Origin: a virus
Lineage: Duplodnaviria; Heunggongvirae; Uroviricota; Caudoviricetes
Virus record (IMG/VR): IMGVR_UViG_2690316153_000010
Reading direction: 5' to 3' (one strand)
Length of the DNA: 8,177 nucleotides
Positions 1 through 8,177 of the stretch are shown here, one piece after another. The notes below the pieces were generated by a model. That model had not been told where the DNA came from. It did not search any database and was given only the letters and a program-made list of their open reading frames with translations. The stretch's first letter is position 1; every line of letters starts with the position of its first letter. The position numbers and the translations under genes are program-made.

Positions 1-25
1 CATCAATGACCATCAGATTATTCAT
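1..25 (-). CDS. 5-prime end only (8 codons, MNNLMVID) of a second KilA-N-type gene that runs out of the window; partial
   Basis: Bases 1-44 are identical to 1586-1629, which holds the start codon and GAGGAG RBS of the KilA-N gene at 1179-1610. Too short to assess independently. Confidence 0.3.
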
Positions 26-44
26 ACTTCGTTTCTCCTCTTGA

Positions 45-434
45 TCAGGCGGCTGCACCCGCCGTTTTCTCGTACTTACTGATAGTGATCTCGACCTTCC
101 CTTTCGGGATAACCGGTCCCCACTCCACCAGCATTCTTTTCACCTGACTGTCGTCTTCCCACACACCCGCATGGGTCAGGGCGTCAAACAGCGCCTTGTT
201 ATAGTTGTCCAGATCGCGGATCCGGTTATCCGGAGGAAACAACACGATCTCCACTGAAGCAGGTGCCGACGTTGGTTTCGGCAGACGACGTAACTGCTCA
301 ATGATGGCGGCACACGCCGCGCTCTGAAATTTTCGCCCCGCCTCGCTTATCAGGCTCTTACCAGCAAATGCCCCTTTGTTGGGGTGTCGCCAGTACGTGT
401 TCACGCTGGGCGGAAAAGGCAGTATTAGCTTCAT
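45..434 (-). CDS. rusA: RusA-family Holliday junction resolvase (copy 1)
   Basis: 129-aa ORF. Motifs LPFPPSVNTYWRH and DLDNYNKALFDALTHAGVWEDDSQV match the RusA endonuclease family as I recall it. ATGA start/stop overlap with the upstream methyltransferase gene. Confidence 0.88.
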   Translation of the reverse strand: MKLILPFPPSVNTYWRHPNKGAFAGKSLISEAGRKFQSAACAAIIEQLRRLPKPTSAPASVEIVLFPPDNRIRDLDNYNKALFDALTHAGVWEDDSQVKRMLVEWGPVIPKGKVEITISKYEKTAGAAA

Positions 435-1084
435 GCCACCATCTCCCTGACCAGTTTTTCCGCCTGCTGGCGAACCTGCGCCAGAAATGCCTCACCACAT
501 GCCTCAAGTTCATCGCGCCCGATGTAGCTGATTGCCGGTCCCTTCCAGGTCTTGTCGAAAACAGCAATAGCACCAGCGAAGAAAGCACCTGTTGGCACCT
601 GCTTTTCGTCTTTCGGGATAAACCAGGCAGGCAGTTCAAAACCAATACGCCCGCGAATAAAAGCAATATGATCTGCACCTTCCGGCCACCACACTTCGCC
701 GGTGGCAGCTTTGATCAGGAAAACATAGCGCCCGCCTTTATCACGCATGGCACTGGCATGCTTCATGATGTAACGCATGCCGGTGATGTATTGCCCCTCA
801 TGCTGACTGGCGCGGCTGTACGGGGGATTGCCAAAGGCAGCACCTTTAAGCTCCGCAAGACGTTCTGACCAGTCATGCGCCAGCGCGTTGTCTTCCGCCG
901 TGTAATACGCGGCACATTTGGCGTTATCACCGTCAGTGAACAGATCCAGAACAAACGGACCAAACAAGGTGTTAATTCCCCAGAAAATGTTGTCCGGCGT
1001 GCGCCACTGATCGCCCACTTCCTTCAGTTCATGGGCTGGTTTGTTCCGCAGTTCTACCAGCGCCTGGCAATATTTATTACTCAT
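431..1084 (-). CDS. Phage Dam-like N6-adenine DNA methyltransferase (copy 1)
   Basis: 217-aa ORF starting MSNKYCQ. Contains the NPPY catalytic motif (FGNPPYSR) typical of N6-adenine methyltransferases. TAATG overlap with the upstream remnant ORF. Confidence 0.8.
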   Translation of the reverse strand: MSNKYCQALVELRNKPAHELKEVGDQWRTPDNIFWGINTLFGPFVLDLFTDGDNAKCAAYYTAEDNALAHDWSERLAELKGAAFGNPPYSRASQHEGQYITGMRYIMKHASAMRDKGGRYVFLIKAATGEVWWPEGADHIAFIRGRIGFELPAWFIPKDEKQVPTGAFFAGAIAVFDKTWKGPAISYIGRDELEACGEAFLAQVRQQAEKLVREMVA

Positions 1085-1176
1085 TAAGCCCCCACGTAAA
1101 AAGCATCCGCAATGTCTCCGGAAGTACAGCCCGGATGGGCTTCAATGAATTTCTGAACGTCATTTAACAGACTCAT
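1084..1176 (-). pseudogene. 30-codon in-frame deletion remnant of the PerC-like gene found intact at 2992-3480
   Basis: Translates MSLLNDVQKFIEAHPGCTSGDIADAFYVGA. The first 26 and last 4 residues equal the termini of the 162-aa protein at 2992-3480. Copy-2 bases 3008-3403 (396 bp, 132 codons) are absent here. Confidence 0.5.
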
Positions 1177-1178
1177 GA

Positions 1179-1610
1179 TCACCCCCTGAATCCTGCCGGG
1201 ATCTGGCTGTAGTCCACGTTGTCGTAACTGGCTTTGAAGTACGGGTCTTCACGTTTTTCTGTGTGCGTGCTGACGGACGGCGATAAGCGCAGGGAAAGCT
1301 CATCCCATTTTTCCCGCAACTTCGACGGGCTGATCCACATTGCATAGGCATACACCAGTTCCTTGCAGACATACGTTCCCCGTTCATTTCCCCCATGAAT
1401 CACACTCACCGGGTCAACACCCAAATTCTGGGTGTTGGTCAATTCATGAACAAGCTCAACAGTTTGTTGGCTGGAAAGAAACTTTCCTGGCTCCTTGGTT
1501 CTGGCATTTGCACCAGATGCTACTGCTGCGCGATGCAGATCGTTCAGGCTGTAACGCCCATAAGCATCACGACGAACTTCAATACCATCAATGACCATCA
1601 GATTATTCAT
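1179..1610 (-). CDS. KilA-N domain protein, chimeric: KilA-N N-terminal domain fused to the C-terminal ~50 aa of the replication-initiator-like protein
   Basis: ORF 1179-1643 trimmed to the ATG at 1610, which has a GAGGAG RBS 9 nt upstream. GTYVCKELVYAYAMWISP resembles the KilA-N signature. Bases 1179 to about 1330 are near-identical to 3483 to about 3640. Confidence 0.7.
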   Translation of the reverse strand: MNNLMVIDGIEVRRDAYGRYSLNDLHRAAVASGANARTKEPGKFLSSQQTVELVHELTNTQNLGVDPVSVIHGGNERGTYVCKELVYAYAMWISPSKLREKWDELSLRLSPSVSTHTEKREDPYFKASYDNVDYSQIPAGFRG

Positions 1611-1629
1611 ACTTCGTTTCTCCTCTTGA

Positions 1630-2019
1630 TCAGGCGGCTGCACCCGCCGTTTTCTCGTACTTACTGATAGTGATCTCGACCTTCCCTTTCGGGATAACCG
1701 GTCCCCACTCCACCAGCATTCTTTTCACCTGACTGTCGTCTTCCCACACACCCGCATGGGTCAGGGCGTCAAACAGCGCCTTGTTATAGTTGTCCAGATC
1801 GCGGATCCGGTTATCCGGAGGAAACAACACGATCTCCACTGAAGCAGGTGCCGACGTTGGTTTCGGCAGACGACGTAACTGCTCAACTATTGCTGCGCAC
1901 GCCGCGCTCTGGAATTTGCGCCCCGCTGCGCTTATCAGACTCTTACCAGCAAACGCCCCTTTGTTGGGGTGTCGCCAGTACGTGTTCACGCTGGGCGGGA
2001 AAGGCAAGATCAGCTTCAT
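1630..2019 (-). CDS. rusA: RusA-family Holliday junction resolvase (copy 2)
   Basis: 129-aa ORF differing from copy 1 at 2 residues (E31A, I45V). Same motifs. ATGA overlap with the upstream LexA-like gene. Confidence 0.88.
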   Translation of the reverse strand: MKLILPFPPSVNTYWRHPNKGAFAGKSLISAAGRKFQSAACAAIVEQLRRLPKPTSAPASVEIVLFPPDNRIRDLDNYNKALFDALTHAGVWEDDSQVKRMLVEWGPVIPKGKVEITISKYEKTAGAAA

Positions 2020-2342
2020 ACTTTCAGGCCCCTCTCATGTAACCAGTGGGCTGCACGCAGCCTGGCGTTTTCCTCACCGGCAAGCAGTGCGCGGATAATC
2101 CCGACCGCCTCGCTGTCGTCGTCCTTCACCGCGGTATGAAGAGTTATCCCCCGGGCCACGCCACGCTTTATCGTGATGACGCCTTTTTTCTCCAGTGCGC
2201 GAAGATGCTCCACCGCTGCATTCACCGAACGGTATCCCAGCATGGTTGCCACCTCCTGATTGGTTGGCGGAAAGCCACGTTCTTGCTGGTAAGAAATCAG
2301 CATATCCAGCACCTGCTGCTGGCATTGAGTTAACGTCGTCAT
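2016..2342 (-). CDS. LexA N-terminal DNA-binding-domain-like protein with no S24 peptidase domain
   Basis: 108-aa ORF. Residues 4-66 (LTQCQQQVLDMLISYQQERGFPPTNQEVATMLGYRSVNAAVEHLRALEKKGVITIKRGVARGITL) align with the LexA winged-helix domain ([65 protein letters not shown]). No Ala-Gly cleavage site and no Ser/Lys dyad. ATGA overlaps at both ends. Confidence 0.7.
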   Translation of the reverse strand: MTTLTQCQQQVLDMLISYQQERGFPPTNQEVATMLGYRSVNAAVEHLRALEKKGVITIKRGVARGITLHTAVKDDDSEAVGIIRALLAGEENARLRAAHWLHERGLKV

Positions 2343-2992
2343 GCCGCCATCTCCCTGACCAGTTTTTCCGCCTGCTGGCGAACCTGCGCCAGAAAGGCCT
2401 CACCACATGCCTCAAGTTCATCGCGCCCGATGTAGCTGATTGCCGGTCCCTTCCGGGTCTTGTCGAAAACAGCAATAGCACCAGCGAAGAAAGCGCCTGT
2501 CGGCACCTGCTTCTCGTCCTTCGGGATAAACCAGGCTGGCAGTTCAAAACCAATACGCCCGCGAATAAAAGCAATATGGTCTGCATCTTCCGGCCACCAA
2601 ACTTCGCTGGTGGCAGCTTTGATCAGGAAAACATAGCGCCCGCCTTTATCACGCATGGCACTGGCATGCTTCATGATGTAACGCATGCCGGTGATGTATT
2701 GCCCCTCATGCTGACTGGCGCGGCTGTACGGGGGATTACCAAAGGCAGCACCTTTAAGCTCCGCAAGACGTTCTGACCAGTCATGCGCCAGCGCGTTGTC
2801 TTCCGCCGTGTAATACGCGGCGCATTTGGCGTTATCACCATCAGTAAACAGATCCAGAACAAACGGGCCAAACAGGGTGTTAATTCCCCAGAAAATGTTG
2901 TCCGGCGTGCGCCACTGATCGCCCACTTCCTTCAGTTCATGGGCTGGTTTGTTCCGCAGCTCCACCAGCGCCTGGCAATATTTATTACTCAT
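2339..2992 (-). CDS. Phage Dam-like N6-adenine DNA methyltransferase (copy 2)
   Basis: ORF 2339-3025 trimmed to MSNKYCQ at 2992 by comparison with copy 1 and the TAATG overlap with the upstream stop. 4 amino-acid differences from copy 1. NPPY motif present. Confidence 0.8.
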   Translation of the reverse strand: MSNKYCQALVELRNKPAHELKEVGDQWRTPDNIFWGINTLFGPFVLDLFTDGDNAKCAAYYTAEDNALAHDWSERLAELKGAAFGNPPYSRASQHEGQYITGMRYIMKHASAMRDKGGRYVFLIKAATSEVWWPEDADHIAFIRGRIGFELPAWFIPKDEKQVPTGAFFAGAIAVFDKTRKGPAISYIGRDELEACGEAFLAQVRQQAEKLVREMAA

Positions 2993-3480
2993 TAAGCCCC
3001 CACGTAATTCCCTGACAGATACCACTCTTCACCCGATGCAGCGCGCTTGCTGCTTTTCCGTAAACACCGCTCACGACGCGCAAGAAAATTGTTTCGCTCT
3101 TGCTGGGAGTGGCTTTCACGGAATGCCGCCATCCACACCGTTGCAGCACGACGGTATAAGCCCCTGGACTCCAGTTCTTCCGCCTGGCGGGTCAGGCACA
3201 AAATCACCCGGGGATCGTTAGTGCCGACATAGAAATTGCGCACAGGTCTGGATTCACGAACTGGTTGCGGTTCCGGCTCCTGCGGTATCTCAGTCAGCCG
3301 CGGGAAATGTCTGCGTGTATCCCCTTCACAACGGTGAGCCACACGCCCACTCTGACGTAACTTGCTTGCTGACTGCAGAACGCGCTGTCGTGAGTAACCT
3401 GCAAAAGCATCCGCAATGTCTCCGGAAGTACACCCCGGATGGGCTTCAATGAATTTCTGAACGTCATTCAAAAGACTCAT
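2992..3480 (-). CDS. Hypothetical regulator, possibly PerC-family-like
   Basis: 162-aa ORF (track ORF 2992-3486 trimmed to MSLL, since the upstream stop is at 3483-3485). The segment AEELESRGLYRRAATVWMAAFRES...ERNNFLARRERCL resembles the PerC-family motif as I recall it. Family assignment is tentative. Confidence 0.5.
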   Translation of the reverse strand: MSLLNDVQKFIEAHPGCTSGDIADAFAGYSRQRVLQSASKLRQSGRVAHRCEGDTRRHFPRLTEIPQEPEPQPVRESRPVRNFYVGTNDPRVILCLTRQAEELESRGLYRRAATVWMAAFRESHSQQERNNFLARRERCLRKSSKRAASGEEWYLSGNYVGA

Positions 3481-3482
3481 GA

Positions 3483-4424
3483 TCACCCCCTGAATCCTGC
3501 CGGGATCTGGCTGTAGTCCACGTTGTCGTAACTGGCTTTGAAGTACGGGTCTTCGCGTTTTTCGGTGTACGTGCTGACGGACGGCGATAAGCGCAGGGAA
3601 AGCTCATCCCATTTTTCCCGCAGCTTCGACGGGCTGAGCACGTTACGGCACCAGAACGGATCGCGACTGACGCGGCTGTACATCTCGCAGATTTGTTTAT
3701 GAGTACGACCATCCTGCACACACATCAGGCGAATTTCGTTTGCCCAGGCTGTCCAGTTCGGTTCTTTGGGACGAACCACCTCGCCGTCACATTCGGCGGC
3801 ATGCTCGTACAGGGCGATGATTTTTTTCCAGAGCCACTGTGCGCAGGTCAAATCATCCTGCGTCCCCCACTGGCGCTTTTTAGGGCTGAATACAACCGCA
3901 TCAGGATGGCGAGTTAAAAAATCCTGTTCAGCCGTCTGCGTGTCCGGTTGCGAAGCGTCCGGACGAGAAGTTTTTTTATCTGACGGATCATGTTTTGATT
4001 TTACTGACGGATCCCCACCAGATTCTGACGGGTGAAAACCCGCTTTTTTGCCAGATTTCGACGCATCAAATTTTGACGGGTCAGATTTTGATGCGTCAGA
4101 TTTTGACGGGTCAGAATCTGACAGTTGAGAAAATGCCGCTGCCTGAAGCTTCGCAACGTTAAGCTGATAAACATTCGACGCATTGCGGTTACCCTGGCGA
4201 CGCGCCCTACGCGTTAACCAGCCTTCTGCTTCCAGCCGTGCGATAGCCGTTCTGACGGTACTCATCCCCGCGCCAATCTGGCGGGCAATGGTTTCAATTG
4301 ATGGCCAGCACACACCTTCGTCATTACTGAAATCAGCCAGGCGGGCCATAATTGCCACGCTGGATAATTTCATGCCTGATGCAGCGCAACCATCCCATAC
4401 ATAGCCGGTTAATTTAGTGCTCAT
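3483..4424 (-). CDS. Replication initiator-like protein: N-terminal HTH/winged-helix domain, low-complexity DPSKS repeat linker, C-terminal tail shared with the KilA-N gene
   Basis: 313-aa ORF. N-terminal segment (GYVWDGCAASGMKLSSVAIMARLADFSNDEGVCWPSIETIARQIGAGMSTVRTAIARLEAEGWL) looks like the HTH domain of phage replication initiators. Internal tandem DNA repeats resemble lambda O-type iterons. Position downstream of cro/cII-like genes fits. Confidence 0.65.
   Translation of the reverse strand: MSTKLTGYVWDGCAASGMKLSSVAIMARLADFSNDEGVCWPSIETIARQIGAGMSTVRTAIARLEAEGWLTRRARRQGNRNASNVYQLNVAKLQAAAFSQLSDSDPSKSDASKSDPSKFDASKSGKKAGFHPSESGGDPSVKSKHDPSDKKTSRPDASQPDTQTAEQDFLTRHPDAVVFSPKKRQWGTQDDLTCAQWLWKKIIALYEHAAECDGEVVRPKEPNWTAWANEIRLMCVQDGRTHKQICEMYSRVSRDPFWCRNVLSPSKLREKWDELSLRLSPSVSTYTEKREDPYFKASYDNVDYSQIPAGFRG
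3975..4127. repeat. Iteron-like 15-bp tandem repeats (consensus AGATTTTGACGGGTC, core TGACGG); candidate origin of replication inside the initiator gene
   Basis: Five contiguous 15-bp units at 4053-4127, plus three degenerate copies at 3975-3989, 3996-4013 and 4021-4035 interspersed with A/T runs. In the coding frame they give the pentapeptide repeat DPSKS/DASKS. Confidence 0.6.
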
Positions 4425-4433
4425 GACCGACCT

Positions 4434-4772
4434 CTATTTCCCTGAATTTACGACGAAACTGTTCGAGCGGGCTGAAGCACTCATGCTCATAGCCTTCGCG
4501 GAGGTAGATAACACGTTGTGTTTCCGGCTCCCAACGAATGACTCTGACGGGCACTCCGTAGTGATCTTTGAACCAGCGGTTAACTTGTCGCAAAGGACTG
4601 TCTCCTTCTGCCGGTTGAAATCACCCACAGCCCACTCTGCAAAGCTGTGGGTTACAATTTCCCTGTCACCTGGTACATTCACTGCATAGCAATACTCCAC
4701 CTTCGCTTTTCCACCCGGTACAGGAAGCGCAATCAGTTGCGAGCGACGGTAGTGTGTTGTTAAACTGTTCAT
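4434..4772 (-). CDS. Hypothetical protein; C-terminal half may be out of frame (possible frameshift or pseudogene)
   Basis: 112-aa ORF with GGAGA RBS 9 nt upstream. The last ~50 residues are S/T/A-rich and low in complexity, while the -1 frame (4414-4620) is open for 68 codons, protein-like, and ends overlapping the next gene start. Confidence 0.4.
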
Positions 4773-5365
4773 GCGTTAGTTTCTCCACAGTCACGACACG
4801 CCACGGCGCCCGGAGCTGCACACTCGCGGGCGTCATTACTTTCTGAAATGCAAAAAATTTTGTAGACCAGTGCTGCATGCTCCTGCAGCTTCGAAATTGA
4901 GAGGTACAGCTCGTCGTTAATTGCTGTCTTCTCATGCGGTTCCACTACACCGTCTTCAATTGCTGAACGAATCTGTTTTGAATAACTGCCGATCTGTTCA
5001 ATGACTTCCAGCAGGCGCTGGTTAATATCGGCGTTGTCCACATCCTCGACGTCAGGAAGAGACACAAAGACGCCATTTGCAGACTGCGCCACAGCGTCAG
5101 CAATGAAGTGAGTTCCACCAGCACGTTGCAAAATCATTGCCCATCCCAGCGGGAAAATCTGATCGCCATCGGCACGAAGGCGGTTAAATAATGCGTTCTC
5201 TGTTACATCCAGCCAGTCAGCTGCTTCAGCGTAACCACCCGGCAACTTTGCGATAGTTTTTCTGACAGCTTTCACGTACCACTCAGGCTGTTTTTCTACT
5301 TTCCAGTGATGCTTACCCACGGTTAGCCTCATCGTTCTGTGGTTTCTGTTAATCGATTTATCCAT
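4769..5365 (-). CDS. CII/YdaT-like regulator (positional cII equivalent)
   Basis: ORF 4769-5434; start uncertain (candidate ATGs at 5365, 5377, 5332), chosen to limit overlap with cro. HTH-like segment [22 protein letters not shown]. Lies directly downstream of the Cro/YdaS-like gene. Family assignment by recollection only. Confidence 0.5.
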
Positions 5366-5558
5366 TAGATTTTTCATAAAGCTCAGGTTTAAATGGCAAC
5401 CGTCCGCAAGTTCTATATGCAGCTTCTGCTGCACGTCCTTTTGGAATTAACTGGCCCGGACGGTTTCGCCACTGATAAACGGCTTCAGTTGTTATGCCGA
5501 AAAAAGCAGCAACTTTCTCAATACTGCCGAAGTAGCTTTCGATATCGTCAGTTGTCAT
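5358..5558 (-). CDS. Cro/YdaS-like HTH regulator
   Basis: 66-aa ORF transcribed divergently from the repressor. GGAGGG RBS 4 nt upstream of the ATG. HTH-like segment SIEKVAAFFGITTEAVYQWRNR. Confidence 0.7.
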   Translation of the reverse strand: MTTDDIESYFGSIEKVAAFFGITTEAVYQWRNRPGQLIPKGRAAEAAYRTCGRLPFKPELYEKSNG

Positions 5559-5655
5559 ACGCCCTCCAAACTAAGTTTTGTTAGATGCTAATTACAAATC
5601 TATCTTTGGTCAATAAAAACTAAGATTACTTAGCGATTAAAGAAATGGTGCTCCT
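5559..5655. promoter_or_regulatory. Divergent immunity promoter/operator region (pR for cro, pRM for the repressor) with CTAA-N6-TTAG operator palindromes
   Basis: Operator-like sites CTAAGTTTTGTTAG (5571-5584) and CTAAGATTACTTAG (5620-5633), plus overlapping TTAGatgCTAA (5581-5591). Minus-strand -35 TTGACC (5608-5613) and, after a 17-bp spacer, -10 TAGCAT (5585-5590) upstream of cro. Confidence 0.5.
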
Positions 5656-6282
5656 ATGGAAACGGTTGGTCAGCGTATAAAAGCTCTGAGAAGAGTTACC
5701 AGAACGTCCCAGAAAGAATTGGGTAAATTTTGTGGAGTAAGCGACGTTGCTGTGGGGTACTGGGAGAAAGACATCAATACCCCTGGCGGGGAGGCACTTT
5801 CGAAATTAGCGAAGTTCTTCAATACGTCAATAGATTACATTCTTTACGGTGCTGAGTTTGAAGGCAAACTCGTCACAAACATGCGCAGAGTTCCTGTAAT
5901 ATCGTGGGTTCAGGCTGGGCAGTTTACTGAGTGCAGGGCAGCAGAAGTGTTTAGTGAAGTGGACAAGTGGGTAGATACATCATTAAAGGTTGGTGATAAC
6001 TCATTTGCATTAGAGGTTAAAGGTGACTCCATGACTAACCCTAATGGCCTCCCAACAATACCAGAAGGCGCAACAGTGATTGTAGATCCAGATGCAGAAC
6101 CTCGTCATGGAAAAATAGTCATCGCTCGACTTGATGGAACAAACGAAGCTACAGTAAAAAAATTAGTCATCGATGGCCCTCAAAAGTTTTTAGTGCCATT
6201 AAATCCTCGGTATCCCAACATCCCTATCAATGGTAATTGCCTTATCATTGGTGTAGTCAAAGGAGTTCAATACGAACTCTAA
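5656..6282 (+). CDS. cI-like prophage repressor: N-terminal XRE-type HTH plus C-terminal S24 (LexA-like) autopeptidase domain
   Basis: 208-aa ORF. HTH at the N-terminus, Ala-Gly cleavage site in WVQAGQF, catalytic Ser in KGDSM and Lys in TVKKL. Divergent from cro. Confidence 0.9.
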   Translation: METVGQRIKALRRVTRTSQKELGKFCGVSDVAVGYWEKDINTPGGEALSKLAKFFNTSIDYILYGAEFEGKLVTNMRRVPVISWVQAGQFTECRAAEVFSEVDKWVDTSLKVGDNSFALEVKGDSMTNPNGLPTIPEGATVIVDPDAEPRHGKIVIARLDGTNEATVKKLVIDGPQKFLVPLNPRYPNIPINGNCLIIGVVKGVQYEL

Positions 6283-6304
6283 GACCTCTCTTCTCTAACT
6301 AAGG

Positions 6305-6337
6305 CACCGAACCAAGAAAAGTTTGGTGTTTTCTCTT
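6305..6337 (+). terminator. Candidate intrinsic terminator downstream of the repressor gene
   Basis: Stem CACCGAAC (6305-6312) pairs with GTTTGGTG (6321-6328) including one G-U, with an 8-nt loop, followed by TTTTCTCTT. Confidence 0.35.
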
Positions 6338-6364
6338 GCCATGATAACTAAGTTAAGTTAGATT
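6336..6364 (+). promoter_or_regulatory. Candidate early-left promoter (pL-like) with overlapping operator (OL-like)
   Basis: -35 TTGCCA (6336-6341), 17-bp spacer, -10 TAGATT (6359-6364). The operator CTAAGTTAAGTTAG (6348-6361) has the same CTAA-N6-TTAG architecture as the cro/cI intergenic sites. Confidence 0.35.
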
Positions 6365-6447
6365 TTATATCAAAGATAACGAACAGGCAGGACGCCCACG
6401 AAGTAGCCGCCTGGGGCATATGAAGTCCAGGATGATTCGTTAGCAAC

Positions 6448-6471
6448 AAAAAAGCGCCCTACAGGACGCTT
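6448..6471 (-). terminator. Intrinsic terminator for the minus-strand gene 6510-7001
   Basis: On the minus strand: AAGCGUCC, loop UGUA, GGGCGCUU (8-bp GC-rich stem with one G-U), then a U-tract (plus-strand A-run 6448-6453). Lies about 40 nt past the stop codon. Confidence 0.55.
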
Positions 6472-6472
6472 A

Positions 6473-6485
6473 GCTCTTTAACAAT
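6473..6485 (+). promoter_or_regulatory. boxA-like antitermination motif (GCTCTTTAACAAT)
   Basis: 13 of 13 match to the core of the E. coli rrn boxA as I recall it (TGCTCTTTAACAATTTA). Plus-strand, downstream of the candidate pL and just after a hairpin. Confidence 0.4.
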
Positions 6486-6501
6486 CTGGATATCCACAAC
6501 A
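6483..6501. repeat. Left arm of a 19-bp inverted repeat flanking the gene 6510-7001
   Basis: AATCTGGATATCCACAACA; its reverse complement TGTTGTGGATATCCAGATT matches 7044-7062 at 18 of 19 positions. Core TGGATATCCA is itself palindromic. Confidence 0.6.
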
Positions 6502-6509
6502 GTAGTAAT

Positions 6510-7001
6510 CTACAGATTGCCGTTAAGTTTTCTGGACAACTCCTCAATGGATGGAGGCGATACGTAATCCGGATTTTTATTCATCAGAAACTTATTTTCA
6601 CAGTGGAGGCACCTGCTTTTATGAAAAAGCTCATCTTCGCTAACCGGGAATGGTTGAAGTATCGATACTATCTTTTGTCCAAAACATTTTGGGCAAAGAT
6701 GCATGGTTATGCTGCCACCGTTCACGATTACCTCCTTCGAGTATACAAAAGTACCCGACTCAAGTTGGTTAAGGATATAGCCTTCCGTCTGAGCCTCAAA
6801 GTTTTCGAATTCTGCAATTTTAGCTTTGAGAGAAGCATTTATTTCTTGATAAGAGCCCACCAGTTCAACGAGAGACACGCATTCGCGCTGAATAGACGCA
6901 AGCTTTGAGTTCAGCTCACCAATAGCCGCATTTACTTCAGCTTGAGTTTTTGCCTCGTTCATTAGTTTTGCAATCTGGGCTGTTTCACGAATAGCCGTCA
7001 T
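6510..7001 (-). CDS. Hypothetical coiled-coil plus zinc-ribbon protein (moron in the rexAB-equivalent position); function unknown
   Basis: ORF 6510-7289 trimmed to the ATG at 7001 (163 aa); an alternative GTG at 7025 has an AAGAG RBS. N-terminal heptad-like helical region, then CPKC and CLHC about 20 residues apart. AT-rich relative to flanks. Own terminator; opposite orientation to neighbours. Confidence 0.6.
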   Translation of the reverse strand: MTAIRETAQIAKLMNEAKTQAEVNAAIGELNSKLASIQRECVSLVELVGSYQEINASLKAKIAEFENFEAQTEGYILNQLESGTFVYSKEVIVNGGSITMHLCPKCFGQKIVSILQPFPVSEDELFHKSRCLHCENKFLMNKNPDYVSPPSIEELSRKLNGNL

Positions 7002-7043
7002 TGCTGCCGTTAATTCAGCGATCACATTGAATACTCTTATTGT

Positions 7044-7062
7044 TGTTGGGGATATCCAGATT
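7044..7062. repeat. Right arm of the 19-bp inverted repeat flanking the gene 6510-7001
   Basis: TGTTGGGGATATCCAGATT, an inverted match to 6483-6501. Sits 19-40 nt upstream of the candidate start codons of the minus-strand gene. Confidence 0.6.
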
Positions 7063-7072
7063 AACCGAATCC

Positions 7073-7093
7073 TTGTTGTTGGGGAATAACCAG
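7073..7093. repeat. Direct-repeat copy of the right inverted-repeat arm
   Basis: TTGTTGTTGGGGAATAACCAG versus TTGTTGTTGGGGATATCCAG at 7040-7059. The 13-bp core TTGTTGTTGGGGA is perfect in both, 33 bp apart. Confidence 0.5.
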
Positions 7094-7312
7094 GTCCACC
7101 TCGCCTGATGTGGCTAAAAGCAGGCACATAACAGCTAAGTATTTTCAACCAGAGAGAATCCTTAGCGTTGTGGTGAATGCGGCTCAGCGCACGCGGGTTA
7201 AGGTTGAGGCTGACAGTCGACCTTCTGTGGATACCCACCCGCCTGGTGTGCAACCTTCGCCAGGCACCGGGAGGCACCCGGCACCACAACTTTATGCTGT
7301 GTGTAGTCCTGG

Positions 7313-7359
7313 CGGTACCAGTTTGTACCCTTGCTTCCGGCTGGTACCGTCCTTTTTTG
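7313..7359 (+). terminator. Terminator-like hairpin in the GC-rich untranslated leader of the early-left operon
   Basis: CGGTACCAG (7313-7321) pairs with CTGGTACCG (7341-7349) around a 19-nt loop, followed by TCCTTTTTT (T-run 7354-7359). The large loop makes this tentative. Confidence 0.3.
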
Positions 7360-7495
7360 CAAAACAGAGAAGAGCATCACCGGACGACGGGCTCATAACC
7401 CAATCCATCCGGGCGGCTGCCACCGCAGGTGTTCTTCTCTGTTTTGTGGAGAAACCAACCGACCTTGCAGGGTCGATATGATGAGGAGCAGCAAA

Positions 7496-7858
7496 ATGGC
7501 TAGCGAACGCAGTACTGATGTGCAGGCATTTATCGGGGAGCTGGACGGCGGCGTATTTGAAACCAAAATCGGCGCAGTTCTCAGTGAGGTCGCTTCCGGT
7601 GTGATGAACACGAAAACCAAAGGGAAGGTCTCACTCAATCTGGAAATCGAACCGTTTGATGAGAACCGTGTGAAAATCAAACACAAACTCTCATATGTTC
7701 GCCCAACTAACCGCGGGAAAATTTCCGAAGAAGACACCACCGAAACGCCGATGTATGTCAATCGCGGTGGTCGCCTGACTATTCTGCAGGAAGACCAGGG
7801 ACAATTACTGACTCTTGCCGGTGAACCTGACGGAAAACTCCGCGCAGCAGGTCGTTAA
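7496..7858 (+). CDS. Hypothetical early-left protein (120 aa, hydrophilic, acidic)
   Basis: ORF 7331-7858 trimmed to the ATG at 7496, which has a GAGGAG RBS (7484-7489) 6 nt upstream. No arginine-rich N-terminus, so not N-like. Confidence 0.6.
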   Translation: MASERSTDVQAFIGELDGGVFETKIGAVLSEVASGVMNTKTKGKVSLNLEIEPFDENRVKIKHKLSYVRPTNRGKISEEDTTETPMYVNRGGRLTILQEDQGQLLTLAGEPDGKLRAAGR

Positions 7859-7923
7859 TATCGTTCGTAATAAACTGATTATTTATCTCATCACTGAATA
7901 TCTTTATATAGTGAGGACTTATT

Positions 7924-8177
7924 ATGTCTCAGAACTTAGACGCAACCGCAATTAATCAAATCCATGCCCTTATTTCTGCTCAGGGTGTTAATGAAATTAT
8001 CAGTAAGATTGGTGCCGATGCTGTGGCATTGCCTGAGAATTTCCGCATTCATGATCTGGAAAAATTTAATTTAAATCGCTTCCGTTTCCGTGGTGCGCTT
8101 TCCACTGCCAGCATCGATGACTTTACCCGTTATTCTAAAGATCTTGCAGATGAAGGCACCCGCTGCTTTATCGATGC
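7924..8177 (+). CDS. Hypothetical early-left protein, 3-prime truncated by the window edge
   Basis: ATG at 7924 with a GAGGA RBS upstream. Open to the end of the window (84 codons seen). AT-rich. Confidence 0.5.

What the first reader, a model, noticed from the sequence alone, without database searches (positions are those of the whole stretch)
2016..2342. LexA DNA-binding-domain-only protein inserted as a cassette between the methyltransferase and RusA in copy 2 only
The 108-aa product aligns with the LexA N-terminal winged-helix domain at roughly half of positions, including the recognition-helix region (SVNAAVEHLRALE versus [13 protein letters not shown]), but has no cleavage site or S24 domain. 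Such a protein could occupy SOS boxes without being RecA-cleavable, or bind a phage-specific site. It is present in copy 2 and absent from copy 1, where the methyltransferase and RusA genes abut with the same ATGA overlap.
Basis: partly seen in the sequence, partly recalled or inferred. Interest (0 to 1): 0.65.

Follow-up and report, generated by a model that had tools for sequence, protein, structure and literature searches.

The report
Prophage LexA DNA-binding-domain-only regulator gene
This is a real, intact prophage gene for a small protein that copies only the DNA-binding half of the bacterial SOS repressor LexA; the gene is already annotated in about 40% of E. coli genomes, but its target has never been tested.

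Summary
Window 2016..2342 (-) encodes a 108-aa protein whose first 68 residues are a LexA winged-helix domain (Pfam PF01726 E=2.6e-19; 49% identical to E. coli LexA). The AF2 model superposes on DNA-bound LexA at 1.0 A. There is no S24 domain. A family-conserved C-terminal two-helix hairpin replaces it.

"Inserted as a cassette" has the polarity wrong. The gene lies directly upstream of RusA in 57 of 60 sampled E. coli loci. It holds that position in Citrobacter (65% identity) and in phage mEp390 (47%). Copy 1 is the rare, reduced state and also carries a deletion remnant of the neighbouring PerC gene.

The protein is identical to RefSeq WP_000210187.1 and to phage cdtI orf48. It belongs to PHROG 362 and occurs in 2233 of 5426 complete E. 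coli genomes. It is therefore already catalogued, but I found no functional study.

Most likely it is a RecA-insensitive dimeric regulator made from the early-right operon during lytic growth. Its operator is probably LexA-box-like but not the host SOS box. LexA contact residue Glu44 is never kept in the family, and positionally equivalent homologues diverge in the recognition helix. The closest characterised analogue is GIL01 gp6.

The parts
2016..2342 (-). Gene for the 108-aa stand-alone LexA-type DNA-binding protein (identical to WP_000210187.1 and to phage cdtI orf48)
   Evidence: ORF. Pfam PF01726 E=2.6e-19. PHROG 362 full length E=2.6e-59. Identical in DNA and protein to the annotated CDS of L001. 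12 synonymous and 0 nonsynonymous differences against cdtI.
2139..2342 (-). Residues 1-68: LexA-type winged helix-turn-helix domain (H6-22, H28-35, H40-52, strands 56-58 and 66-68)
   Evidence: AF2 model pLDDT about 90. Foldseek top hit 3jso_B, rmsd 1.0 A over 68 columns, 50% identity.
2187..2225 (-). Residues 40-52: recognition helix VNAAVEHLRALEK. Together with the adjacent Ser39, LexA contact residues Asn41, Ala42 and Glu45 are kept; Glu44 is Val.
   Evidence: Alignment to LexA. Contact residue list from PMC3091678. Family variation.
2019..2120 (-). Residues 75-108: family-conserved C-terminal two-helix hairpin (H75-88, H93-103), a putative dimerisation module that takes the place of the S24 domain
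   Evidence: AF2 pLDDT about 90. Ala97 and Leu101 are invariant and the hydrophobic pattern is conserved down to 40% identity.
2351..2355 (-). GGGAG Shine-Dalgarno 8 nt upstream of the ATG, inside the 3' end of the methyltransferase gene. The same element serves RusA in copy 1.
   Evidence: Read directly from the sequence.
2339..2992 (-). Dam-type N6-adenine methyltransferase, copy 2 (upstream neighbour, ATGA overlap)
   Evidence: Pfam Dam E=2.6e-44. PADLOC MTase_II. Annotation of L001.
1630..2019 (-). RusA Holliday-junction resolvase, copy 2 (downstream neighbour, ATGA overlap)
   Evidence: Pfam RusA E=6.6e-15.
45..1084 (-). Copy 1: RusA (45..434) and methyltransferase (431..1084) abutting directly at ATGA (431-434). 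This is the rare state without the gene.
   Evidence: 2 of 60 sampled E. coli loci show this arrangement.
1179..1643 (-). Chimeric ORF marking the join of the two copies: KilA-N N-terminus fused to the C-terminus of the replication protein, with the join at microhomology GACGGGCTGA (1324-1333)
   Evidence: Pfam and PHROG hits. BLAST mapping to L001 and L002.
5585..5613 (-). pR-like promoter upstream of cro. It is the only consensus sigma-70 site on the minus strand upstream of the gene, and no minus-strand terminator-like site lies between them.
5656..6282 (+). HTH_3 + Peptidase_S24 CI-type repressor, the RecA-cleavable switch whose loss would turn on the operon that contains the gene
   Evidence: Pfam. 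Annotation of L001.

Best explanation
The gene encodes a stand-alone LexA-type winged-helix DNA-binding protein. In place of LexA's S24 protease and dimerisation domain it has a conserved C-terminal two-helix hairpin. It is a regular accessory gene of the delayed-early (nin-like) region of lambdoid prophages of Enterobacterales. It is translationally coupled between the Dam-type methyltransferase (or PerC) gene and RusA, and it is transcribed from pR once the CI-type S24 repressor has been cleaved. The protein most likely dimerises through the hairpin and binds a palindromic operator. That operator is probably related to the LexA box (CTGT-type half-sites) but is not the host SOS box. The protein would regulate transcription in a way that RecA* cannot reverse. 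Shown by computation: an intact gene under purifying selection, the LexA DNA-binding fold, absence of the S24 domain, the conserved tail, operon position and conserved gene order. Inferred: dimerisation, DNA binding, timing of expression, RecA insensitivity and the identity of the target. Copy 1 of the window is a reduced variant that lost the gene, not the ancestral state.
For: Fold and homology. Purifying selection: 12 synonymous against 0 nonsynonymous differences versus cdtI, and pN/pS of 0.1-0.3 against SfV and mEp460. Conserved tail with invariant Ala97 and Leu101 in homologues down to 40% identity. Operon context: the only minus-strand promoter-like site upstream is pR-like at 5613..5585, with no minus-strand terminator-like sites, ATGA overlaps on both sides and a Shine-Dalgarno. 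Gene order (replication or PerC or methyltransferase gene, then this gene, then RusA, then KilA-N and/or DUF968, then Q) is conserved in E. coli, SfV, cdtI, mEp460, Citrobacter and mEp390. Altered specificity: Glu44 is replaced in 19 of 19 family members, and positions 42-45 differ in the Citrobacter homologue at the same position (NTIAGH). All seven true-LexA sequences or fragments retrieved keep NAAEEH. Accessory status: lineages with and without the gene coexist. Deletion polarity: copy 1 also holds a 30-codon in-frame remnant of PerC. Precedent: GIL01 gp6, a truncated LexA homologue that binds its own palindrome (PMC6182141).
Against: No operator was identified. The window has no SOS-box match above chance, and a palindrome survey of intergenic DNA in L001 gave nothing diagnostic. 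Dimerisation through the hairpin is inferred from a monomer model (pTM 0.58). Expression only from pR is inferred; the depositors of SfV annotate a weak promoter upstream of dam, and it is conserved here at about 3083..3057, which could allow expression in lysogens. This allele keeps four of five LexA contact residues and the Arg64-Gly65-Ile66 wing, so binding to true SOS boxes is not excluded.
Confidence: 0.5

Rival explanations
1. RecA-proof SOS mimic: the protein binds canonical host SOS boxes (CTGT-N8-ACAG) and re-represses the SOS regulon, together with LexA-controlled elements of competitors, in cells where host LexA has been cleaved.
For: 49-50% identity to the E. coli LexA DNA-binding domain, with Ser39, Asn41, Ala42, Glu45 and the Arg64-Gly65-Ile66 wing kept (contact list from PMC3091678). 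It has no S24 domain, and that domain carries the cleavage and RecA*-contact determinants (PMC3159453). It would be made exactly when LexA is depleted. A perfect SOS box, TACTGTAAAAATAAACAGTG, sits in a linked late-region methylase gene of SfV, cdtI, mEp460 and the Stx2c phages.
Against: Glu44 is never kept in the family, and homologues at the same genomic position change positions 42-45, although the host SOS box is the same across these hosts (established knowledge; not tested here). A different dimerisation module may impose a different half-site spacing. The window and 18.9 kb of the closest prophage hold no perfect SOS box. The methylase-box association is confounded by physical linkage.
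Confidence: 0.25
2. gp6-like activator: the protein binds a phage-specific palindrome at a phage promoter and activates, or times, late or accessory gene expression, as GIL01 gp6 does at P3.
For: It is a truncated LexA homologue in a temperate phage, encoded among early genes just upstream of Q. The family profile matches gp6 at hhalign probability 96.4%, E=1.2e-9, 33% identity. gp6 function is described in PMC6182141.
Against: Lambdoid late expression depends on Q, and closely related modules lack the gene, so no essential phage promoter can depend on it. gp6 Lys38, needed for its binding, aligns with Asn41 here. BLASTP finds no pairwise similarity. gp6 has no C-terminal hairpin.
Confidence: 0.15
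3. The protein is not a free-standing transcription factor. It acts through protein contacts, for example pairing with host LexA N-terminal domains on operators, or assisting RusA or the methyltransferase on DNA.
For: Linkage and translational coupling to RusA persist down to 47% identity. Operator-bound LexA forms an extensive interface between its N-terminal domains (PMC3159453).
Against: The invariant residues are those of the DNA-reading surface and the wing (Ser39, Asn41, Arg64-Gly65-Ile66). Some homologues occur without an adjacent RusA (Klebsiella and Edwardsiella phages). No evidence for such contacts was obtained here.
Confidence: 0.07
4. Decaying remnant of a captured lexA gene with no function.
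For: A vestigial LLAGE aligns with the LexA cleavage site. The gene is dispensable in some lineages.
Against: 12 synonymous against 0 nonsynonymous changes versus cdtI. Full-length homologues occur across genera, with a conserved non-LexA tail. The gene is present in 2233 of 5426 E. coli genomes at 95-100% identity.
Confidence: 0.03

Closest known systems
E. coli LexA N-terminal DNA-binding domain (PDB 1lea; 3jso in complex with operator)
   Same: Same winged-helix fold (rmsd 1.0 A over 68 columns). 49-50% identity. Ser39, Asn41, Ala42, Glu45, His46 and the Arg64-Gly65-Ile66 wing are kept.
   Different: No S24 protease and dimerisation domain and no functional cleavage site. Glu44 is Val and Pro40 is Val. 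It has a novel C-terminal helical hairpin. It scores below the NCBIfam lexA equivalog cutoff (70 against 111 bits). It is encoded by a phage in an early lytic operon.
PHROG 362 / NCBI 'LexA family transcriptional regulator' of lambdoid prophages (SfV orf42, cdtI orf48, mEp460 gp46; Stx-phage pham 237 with domain pfam01726 is probably the same family)
   Same: It is this family: 95-100% identical proteins at the same position, upstream of RusA. The PF01726-only Stx-phage pham is listed in PMC8136144; I did not check the membership of pham 237.
   Different: Nothing of substance. The only peculiarity of the window is the tandem second module that lacks the gene.
Bacillus tectivirus GIL01 gp6 (truncated LexA homologue, activator of late promoter P3)
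   Same: A phage-encoded protein that is only a LexA DNA-binding domain, and that recognises its own palindrome rather than acting as a cleavable repressor (PMC6182141). Profile-level homology: hhalign 96.4%, 33% identity.
   Different: gp6 is 66 aa with no C-terminal hairpin. There is no pairwise BLASTP similarity. Each protein resembles its own host's LexA (gp6 is 44% identical to B. thuringiensis LexA per PMC6182141; this protein is 49% identical to E. coli LexA), so independent truncations are likely (inference). gp6 Lys38 corresponds to Asn41 here. The phage type and regulatory logic are different (no Q antiterminator in GIL01).
LexA(1-84) N-terminal cleavage fragment
   Same: A LexA DNA-binding domain without the catalytic domain.
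   Different: The cellular fragment binds DNA with lower affinity after cleavage and is cleared by ClpXP and Lon (PMC3159453). The phage protein carries its own extra module and a different C-terminus (GLKV), so it is plausibly stable and dimeric (inference).

Membership tests
LexA SOS repressor (NCBIfam TIGR00498 equivalog; MEROPS S24) | N-terminal LexA-type winged-helix DNA-binding domain (PF01726) | tested here: met
   E=2.6e-19 over positions 1-65 of 65. Foldseek 3jso_B rmsd 1.0 A.
LexA SOS repressor (NCBIfam TIGR00498 equivalog; MEROPS S24) | C-terminal Peptidase_S24 domain with the Ser119/Lys156 dyad | tested here: not met
   The protein ends at residue 108. There is no PF00717 hit, whereas the window's CI-type repressor scores 1.8e-27 in the same search.
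LexA SOS repressor (NCBIfam TIGR00498 equivalog; MEROPS S24) | Ala-Gly scissile bond in a cleavage-site loop | tested here: not met
   LLAGE aligns with VAAGE, but it lies in predicted helix 75-88 and is not conserved among family members.
LexA SOS repressor (NCBIfam TIGR00498 equivalog; MEROPS S24) | Score at or above the curated equivalog cutoff | tested here: not met
   70.3 bits against a cutoff of 110.95; only profile positions 1-91 of 203 are matched.
LexA SOS repressor (NCBIfam TIGR00498 equivalog; MEROPS S24) | Base-contacting residues Ser39, Asn41, Ala42, Glu44, Glu45 (recognition of CTGT) | tested here: inconclusive
   Four of five are kept; Glu44 is Val (residue list from PMC3091678). 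Glu44 is absent from all 19 family members, while all seven true-LexA sequences or fragments retrieved keep NAAEEH.
PHROG 362 / stand-alone LexA_DNA_bind proteins of enterobacterial lambdoid prophages | Full-length match to the family profile | tested here: met
   E=2.6e-59; residues 1-108 match positions 1-106 of 106. 100% identical to cdtI orf48 and to WP_000210187.1.
PHROG 362 / stand-alone LexA_DNA_bind proteins of enterobacterial lambdoid prophages | Conserved C-terminal two-helix tail after the DNA-binding domain | tested here: met
   Alignment A2, with Ala97 and Leu101 invariant. Helices 75-88 and 93-103 have pLDDT about 90.
PHROG 362 / stand-alone LexA_DNA_bind proteins of enterobacterial lambdoid prophages | Position in the region between the replication genes and Q, directly upstream of RusA | tested here: met
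GIL01 gp6-type truncated LexA activator | Protein of a temperate phage that consists only of a LexA DNA-binding domain | tested here: met
   gp6 is described in PMC6182141.
GIL01 gp6-type truncated LexA activator | Direct sequence relationship to gp6, and Lys38 in the recognition helix | tested here: not met
   No BLASTP alignment. Only domain-level profile similarity. gp6 Lys38 aligns with Asn41.
GIL01 gp6-type truncated LexA activator | Binds a phage palindrome overlapping the -35 element and activates a late promoter | not testable with these tools
   Needs EMSA or footprinting and reporter assays.

The most novel reading that the evidence does not exclude
The protein is an uncleavable SOS re-repressor, a phage 'anti-SOS' function. 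On this reading, prophages in about 40% of E. coli strains, including Stx2c- and Cdt-converting phages, express it after induction to shut down the host SOS regulon and LexA-controlled competitors (colicins, antirepressor-controlled prophages, SOS toxins). That would affect mutagenesis, toxin yield and competition between prophages.
Probability: 0.2. Interest if true: 0.7.

Novelty: already known. Interest (0 to 1): 0.3.

Why it matters
The gene itself is catalogued: PHROG 362, thousands of RefSeq 'LexA family' entries, and probably a pham in Stx-phage surveys. Finding it here is therefore not news. The remaining interest is that I found no functional study of this enterobacterial family in the searchable literature. 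It is nevertheless present in 2233 of 5426 complete E. coli genomes and in toxin-converting phages (Stx2c, Stx2a, Cdt-I). Its architecture, a LexA reading head on a non-cleavable body, makes a simple and testable prediction about cross-talk with the SOS response. If it bound SOS boxes it would be a phage-encoded brake on SOS. If it binds its own site it would be a second, independently derived example of the GIL01 gp6 principle. Either result is accessible by one DAP-seq or ChIP-seq experiment plus an SOS reporter assay in a lexA(Def) strain.

Tried and rejected
1. SOS-box scan of the window (CTGT-N8-ACAG, up to 1 mismatch): 4 hits against 2.8 expected, and 56 of 200 shuffles did as well. No signal.

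2. Palindrome survey of intergenic DNA in the closest prophage (L001): only terminator-like and AT-rich palindromes, nothing attributable to this protein.

3. Perfect SOS boxes in phages carrying the gene. The dinI boxes are ordinary host-LexA sites. The box in the late methylase gene co-occurs with the gene, but the two lie about 4.5 kb apart in one conserved block, so the association cannot be separated from linkage.

4. Vestigial cleavage site (LLAGE): rejected as functional because it is not conserved and lies in a predicted helix.

5. Search for the Rep::KilA-N junction elsewhere: no contiguous match in 5426 E. coli genomes, GTDB species representatives or IMG/VR. The origin of the tandem arrangement stays open.

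6. Literature: eight searches found no functional study of the enterobacterial family. The Nature 2010 LexA-DNA structure paper is not held, so the role of each contact residue rests on the residue list in PMC3091678.

7. PADLOC: no meaningful defence-system hit for the protein.

8. BLASTP against GIL01 gp6: nothing. Only profile-level similarity was found.

Full report
OBSERVATION

The ORF at window 2016..2342 on the minus strand is real: 108 codons with an ATG start. Its ATG overlaps the stop codon of the upstream Dam-type methyltransferase gene (ATGA at 2339-2342). Its own stop overlaps the ATG of RusA (ATGA at 2016-2019). A GGGAG Shine-Dalgarno lies 8 nt upstream at 2351-2355.

Pfam LexA_DNA_bind (PF01726) matches residues 1-65 over the entire 65-position profile, E=2.6e-19, 69 bits against a cutoff of 23.7. 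There is no Peptidase_S24 hit, although the window's own CI-type repressor (5656..6282) gives S24 at 1.8e-27 in the same run. The NCBIfam lexA equivalog TIGR00498 is matched only over its first 91 of 203 positions and scores 70 bits against a cutoff of 111.

phmmer against PDB sequences returns E. coli LexA (1lea, 3jso) at E about 1e-15. The alignment is ungapped over residues 2-70, and I count 34 of 69 identical positions. An AlphaFold2 model built on a 19-sequence family alignment has mean pLDDT 85. Its first 68 residues superpose on LexA chain B of the LexA-operator complex at rmsd 1.0 A and 50% identity.

WHAT THE PROTEIN LOOKS LIKE

After the winged helix (H6-22, H28-35, H40-52, strands 56-58 and 66-68) comes a low-confidence linker at residues 69-74. 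It is followed by a confident two-helix hairpin, H75-88 and H93-103.

This tail is not LexA sequence, but it is conserved. Homologues of 40-53% identity from a search of 1.84 billion representative proteins carry the same pattern, with Ala97 and Leu101 invariant. A small amphipathic hairpin with no core of its own is what one expects of a dimerisation element. That is an inference, because I could only model the monomer.

The stretch LLAGE (residues 86-90) aligns with the LexA cleavage site VAA|GE. It lies inside helix 75-88 and is not conserved in the family. I treat it as a fossil at most.

DNA-READING RESIDUES

PMC3091678 lists Ser39, Asn41, Ala42, Glu44 and Glu45 of helix III as the DNA-contacting residues of E. 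coli LexA. This allele keeps Ser39, Asn41, Ala42 and Glu45, but has Val at position 44.

Across the 19 family members aligned, Ser39, Asn41 and the wing Arg64-Gly65-Ile66 are invariant. Position 44 is never Glu; it is Val, Thr, Phe, Ala or Leu. Position 45 is lost in three members. The Citrobacter homologue sits at the same genomic position at 65% identity, and its recognition helix reads NTIAGH. In contrast, all seven true-LexA sequences or fragments that the same search returned read NAAEEH.

If the job were to imitate host LexA on an operator that is the same in all these hosts (established knowledge about enterobacterial SOS boxes; not tested here), these positions should be frozen. They are not. 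I read this as altered, and probably diversifying, operator specificity.

HOW COMMON IT IS, AND WHERE IT SITS

The protein is identical to WP_000210187.1 'LexA family protein' in the best-matching chromosome and to orf48 of phage cdtI. It matches PHROG 362 'transcriptional repressor' end to end at E=2.6e-59.

The gene occurs at 95% identity or more in 2233 of 5426 complete E. coli genomes, with up to four copies per genome. It also occurs in 61 phage records, including SfV, SfII, SfIV, mEp460, and Stx2a- and Stx2c-converting phages. A survey of Stx phages lists a PF01726-only pham 'LexA family transcriptional regulator' without functional comment; this is probably the same family (PMC8136144).

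The gene order is the same in E. coli, SfV, cdtI and mEp460: cro, cII-like, replication protein, (PerC/yfdN), (Dam methyltransferase), this gene, RusA, KilA-N, DUF968, Q. It is also the same in Citrobacter prophages carrying a 65%-identical homologue. In the Hendrixvirinae phage mEp390, a 47%-identical homologue again overlaps RusA by 4 nt, but there the order runs replication protein, this gene, RusA, DUF968, Q, with no KilA-N gene. More distant, shorter homologues in Edwardsiella and Klebsiella phages are also in the region upstream of Q.

On the minus strand of the window, the only consensus promoter upstream of the gene is the pR-like site before cro (5613..5585). No terminator-like site intervenes. 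The gene is therefore most simply a delayed-early lytic gene.

Purifying selection is clear. There are 12 synonymous and 0 nonsynonymous differences against cdtI, and pN/pS is 0.1-0.3 against SfV and mEp460.

THE 'CASSETTE IN COPY 2 ONLY'

The indel is exact: 324 nt, with TCAT at both edges.

I sampled 60 E. coli records at even steps down the ranking of 2232 records that match the copy-1 junction:
- 44 have the LexA-like gene between the methyltransferase and RusA.
- 12 have it next to RusA with another upstream gene.
- 1 has it next to the methyltransferase.
- 1 is uninformative.
- 2 show the direct methyltransferase-RusA abutment.

Copy 1 also contains a 30-codon in-frame remnant of PerC/yfdN, MSLLNDVQKFIEAHPGCTSGDIADAF-YVGA. 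RefSeq marks this as an incomplete pseudogene in the matching strain. That is an unambiguous deletion in the same module. Copy 1 is therefore best read as a reduced module that lost two accessory genes.

The two 'copies' are not a duplication in place. Window 1..1333 is 98.1% identical to a prophage of strain SCPM-O-B-9504 (L002). Window 1324..8177 is 99.87% identical to a DLP12-site prophage of strain UC4224 (L001). The two matches share only the 10-nt microhomology GACGGGCTGA at the join. Window 1-300 is identical to 1586-1885, after which the copies differ by 11% over the next 134 nt. That pattern indicates a second, homologous crossover inside RusA.

The join creates the in-frame KilA-N::Rep chimera at 1179..1643. 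It is not found contiguous in any of 5426 E. coli genomes, in GTDB species representatives or in IMG/VR.

MECHANISM

I commit to the following, at about 0.5 confidence. The protein is a RecA-insensitive, dimeric, sequence-specific regulator. It is made from pR after the S24 CI-type repressor is cleaved. It binds a LexA-box-related operator that is not the host SOS box.

RecA insensitivity follows from the absence of the C-terminal domain. PMC3159453 states that this domain carries the dimerisation, self-cleavage and RecA*-contact determinants. The protein is accessory rather than essential, because closely related modules lack it.

The main rival is the SOS mimic, at 0.25. It is kept alive by the four retained contact residues. 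It is also supported by a lead I could not resolve. A perfect, extended SOS box, TACTGTAAAAATAAACAGTG, occupies codons 4-9 of a late-region DNA adenine methylase gene in SfV, cdtI, mEp460 and the Stx2c phages. Of the 28 phage records with that methylase, at least 25 also appear among the listed carriers of the LexA-like gene. The two loci are linked in one conserved block, so this is not independent evidence.

A gp6-like activator role gets 0.15. It is weakened by the gene's dispensability and by Q-dependent late control. A protein-partner role gets 0.07 and a dead remnant 0.03.

COMPARISON WITH THE KNOWN

It is not a LexA orthologue. Three of five defining features fail (S24 domain, scissile site, equivalog score).

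It is a member of the catalogued stand-alone PF01726 prophage family (PHROG 362).

The closest characterised system is GIL01 gp6, a 66-aa truncated LexA homologue that binds its own palindrome and activates late promoter P3 (PMC6182141). The family profile matches gp6 at hhalign probability 96.4% and 33% identity, but BLASTP finds nothing. gp6 has no hairpin, and its key Lys38 aligns with Asn41 here. Each protein resembles its own host's LexA, so the two are most likely independent truncations of the same domain.

VERDICT

The finding is real and correctly identified as a LexA DNA-binding-domain-only protein. However, the gene is ordinary and already annotated, and the 'insertion' reading is reversed. 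The open question is its target, which is cheap to test. Interest 0.3. Novelty: already known.

Noticed in passing
window 1..1643 against 1586..3486; join at 1324-1333: The two 'copies' are segments of two different prophage lineages. Window 1..1333 is 98.1% identical to L002 and 1324..8177 is 99.87% identical to L001. They are joined at the 10-nt microhomology GACGGGCTGA, which creates an in-frame KilA-N(N-terminus)::replication-protein(C-terminus) ORF at 1179..1643. The junction is absent from 5426 complete E. coli genomes, GTDB species representatives and IMG/VR, so the tandem arrangement is either a private rearrangement or a chimeric sequence.
   Followed up: yes
window 1-300 against 1586-1885, then 301-434 against 1886-2019: The first 300 nt of the two copies are 100% identical. 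The next 134 nt (the 5' third of RusA) differ at 15 positions (11%), nearly all synonymous. This is a sharp mosaic boundary and suggests a homologous crossover inside RusA.
   Followed up: partly
window 1085..1178 (-): Copy 1 carries a 30-codon in-frame remnant of the PerC/yfdN gene: the N-terminal 26 codons fused to the last 4, MSLLNDVQKFIEAHPGCTSGDIADAFYVGA. The reduced module therefore lost both accessory genes (PerC and the LexA-like gene).
   Followed up: yes
L004 (phage SfV) 34169-34188; also cdtI 44082-44101 and mEp460 41020-41039: A perfect extended SOS box, TACTGTAAAAATAAACAGTG, lies in codons 4-9 of a late-region DNA adenine methylase gene downstream of Q. It is conserved in 28 phage records, at least 25 of which also carry the LexA-like gene. 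No consensus promoter was found upstream. Its function is unknown, and the association is confounded by linkage.
   Followed up: partly
window 3057..3083 (-): The weak -35/-10 pair (TTGCGC and TACGGA) that the depositors of SfV annotated as a dam promoter inside the PerC gene is conserved here. If it is active, the methyltransferase, the LexA-like gene and RusA could be expressed in lysogens. It did not pass the consensus promoter scan.
   Followed up: partly
window 6510..7025 (-): A 171-aa hypothetical protein lies between the CI-type repressor and the yfdP-like genes, a typical position for a lysogen-expressed accessory gene. It has a coiled-coil N-terminal half and a CxxC...CxxC zinc-ribbon-like C-terminus. 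There is no significant Pfam hit and no PADLOC hit.
   Followed up: partly
window about 3990..4110 (-), inside the 313-aa replication/HTH_36 protein: A low-complexity repeated peptide, DPSKSDASKSDPSKFDASKS, sits in the middle of the replication-initiator-like protein. It might be a linker, or might reflect iteron-like DNA repeats. I did not examine it.
   Followed up: no
proteins P0128, P0135, P0141, P0144 and others: Several database proteins carry two LexA_DNA_bind domains in tandem (two matched stretches). These are possible single-chain pseudo-dimers of the LexA reading head. I did not examine them.
   Followed up: no
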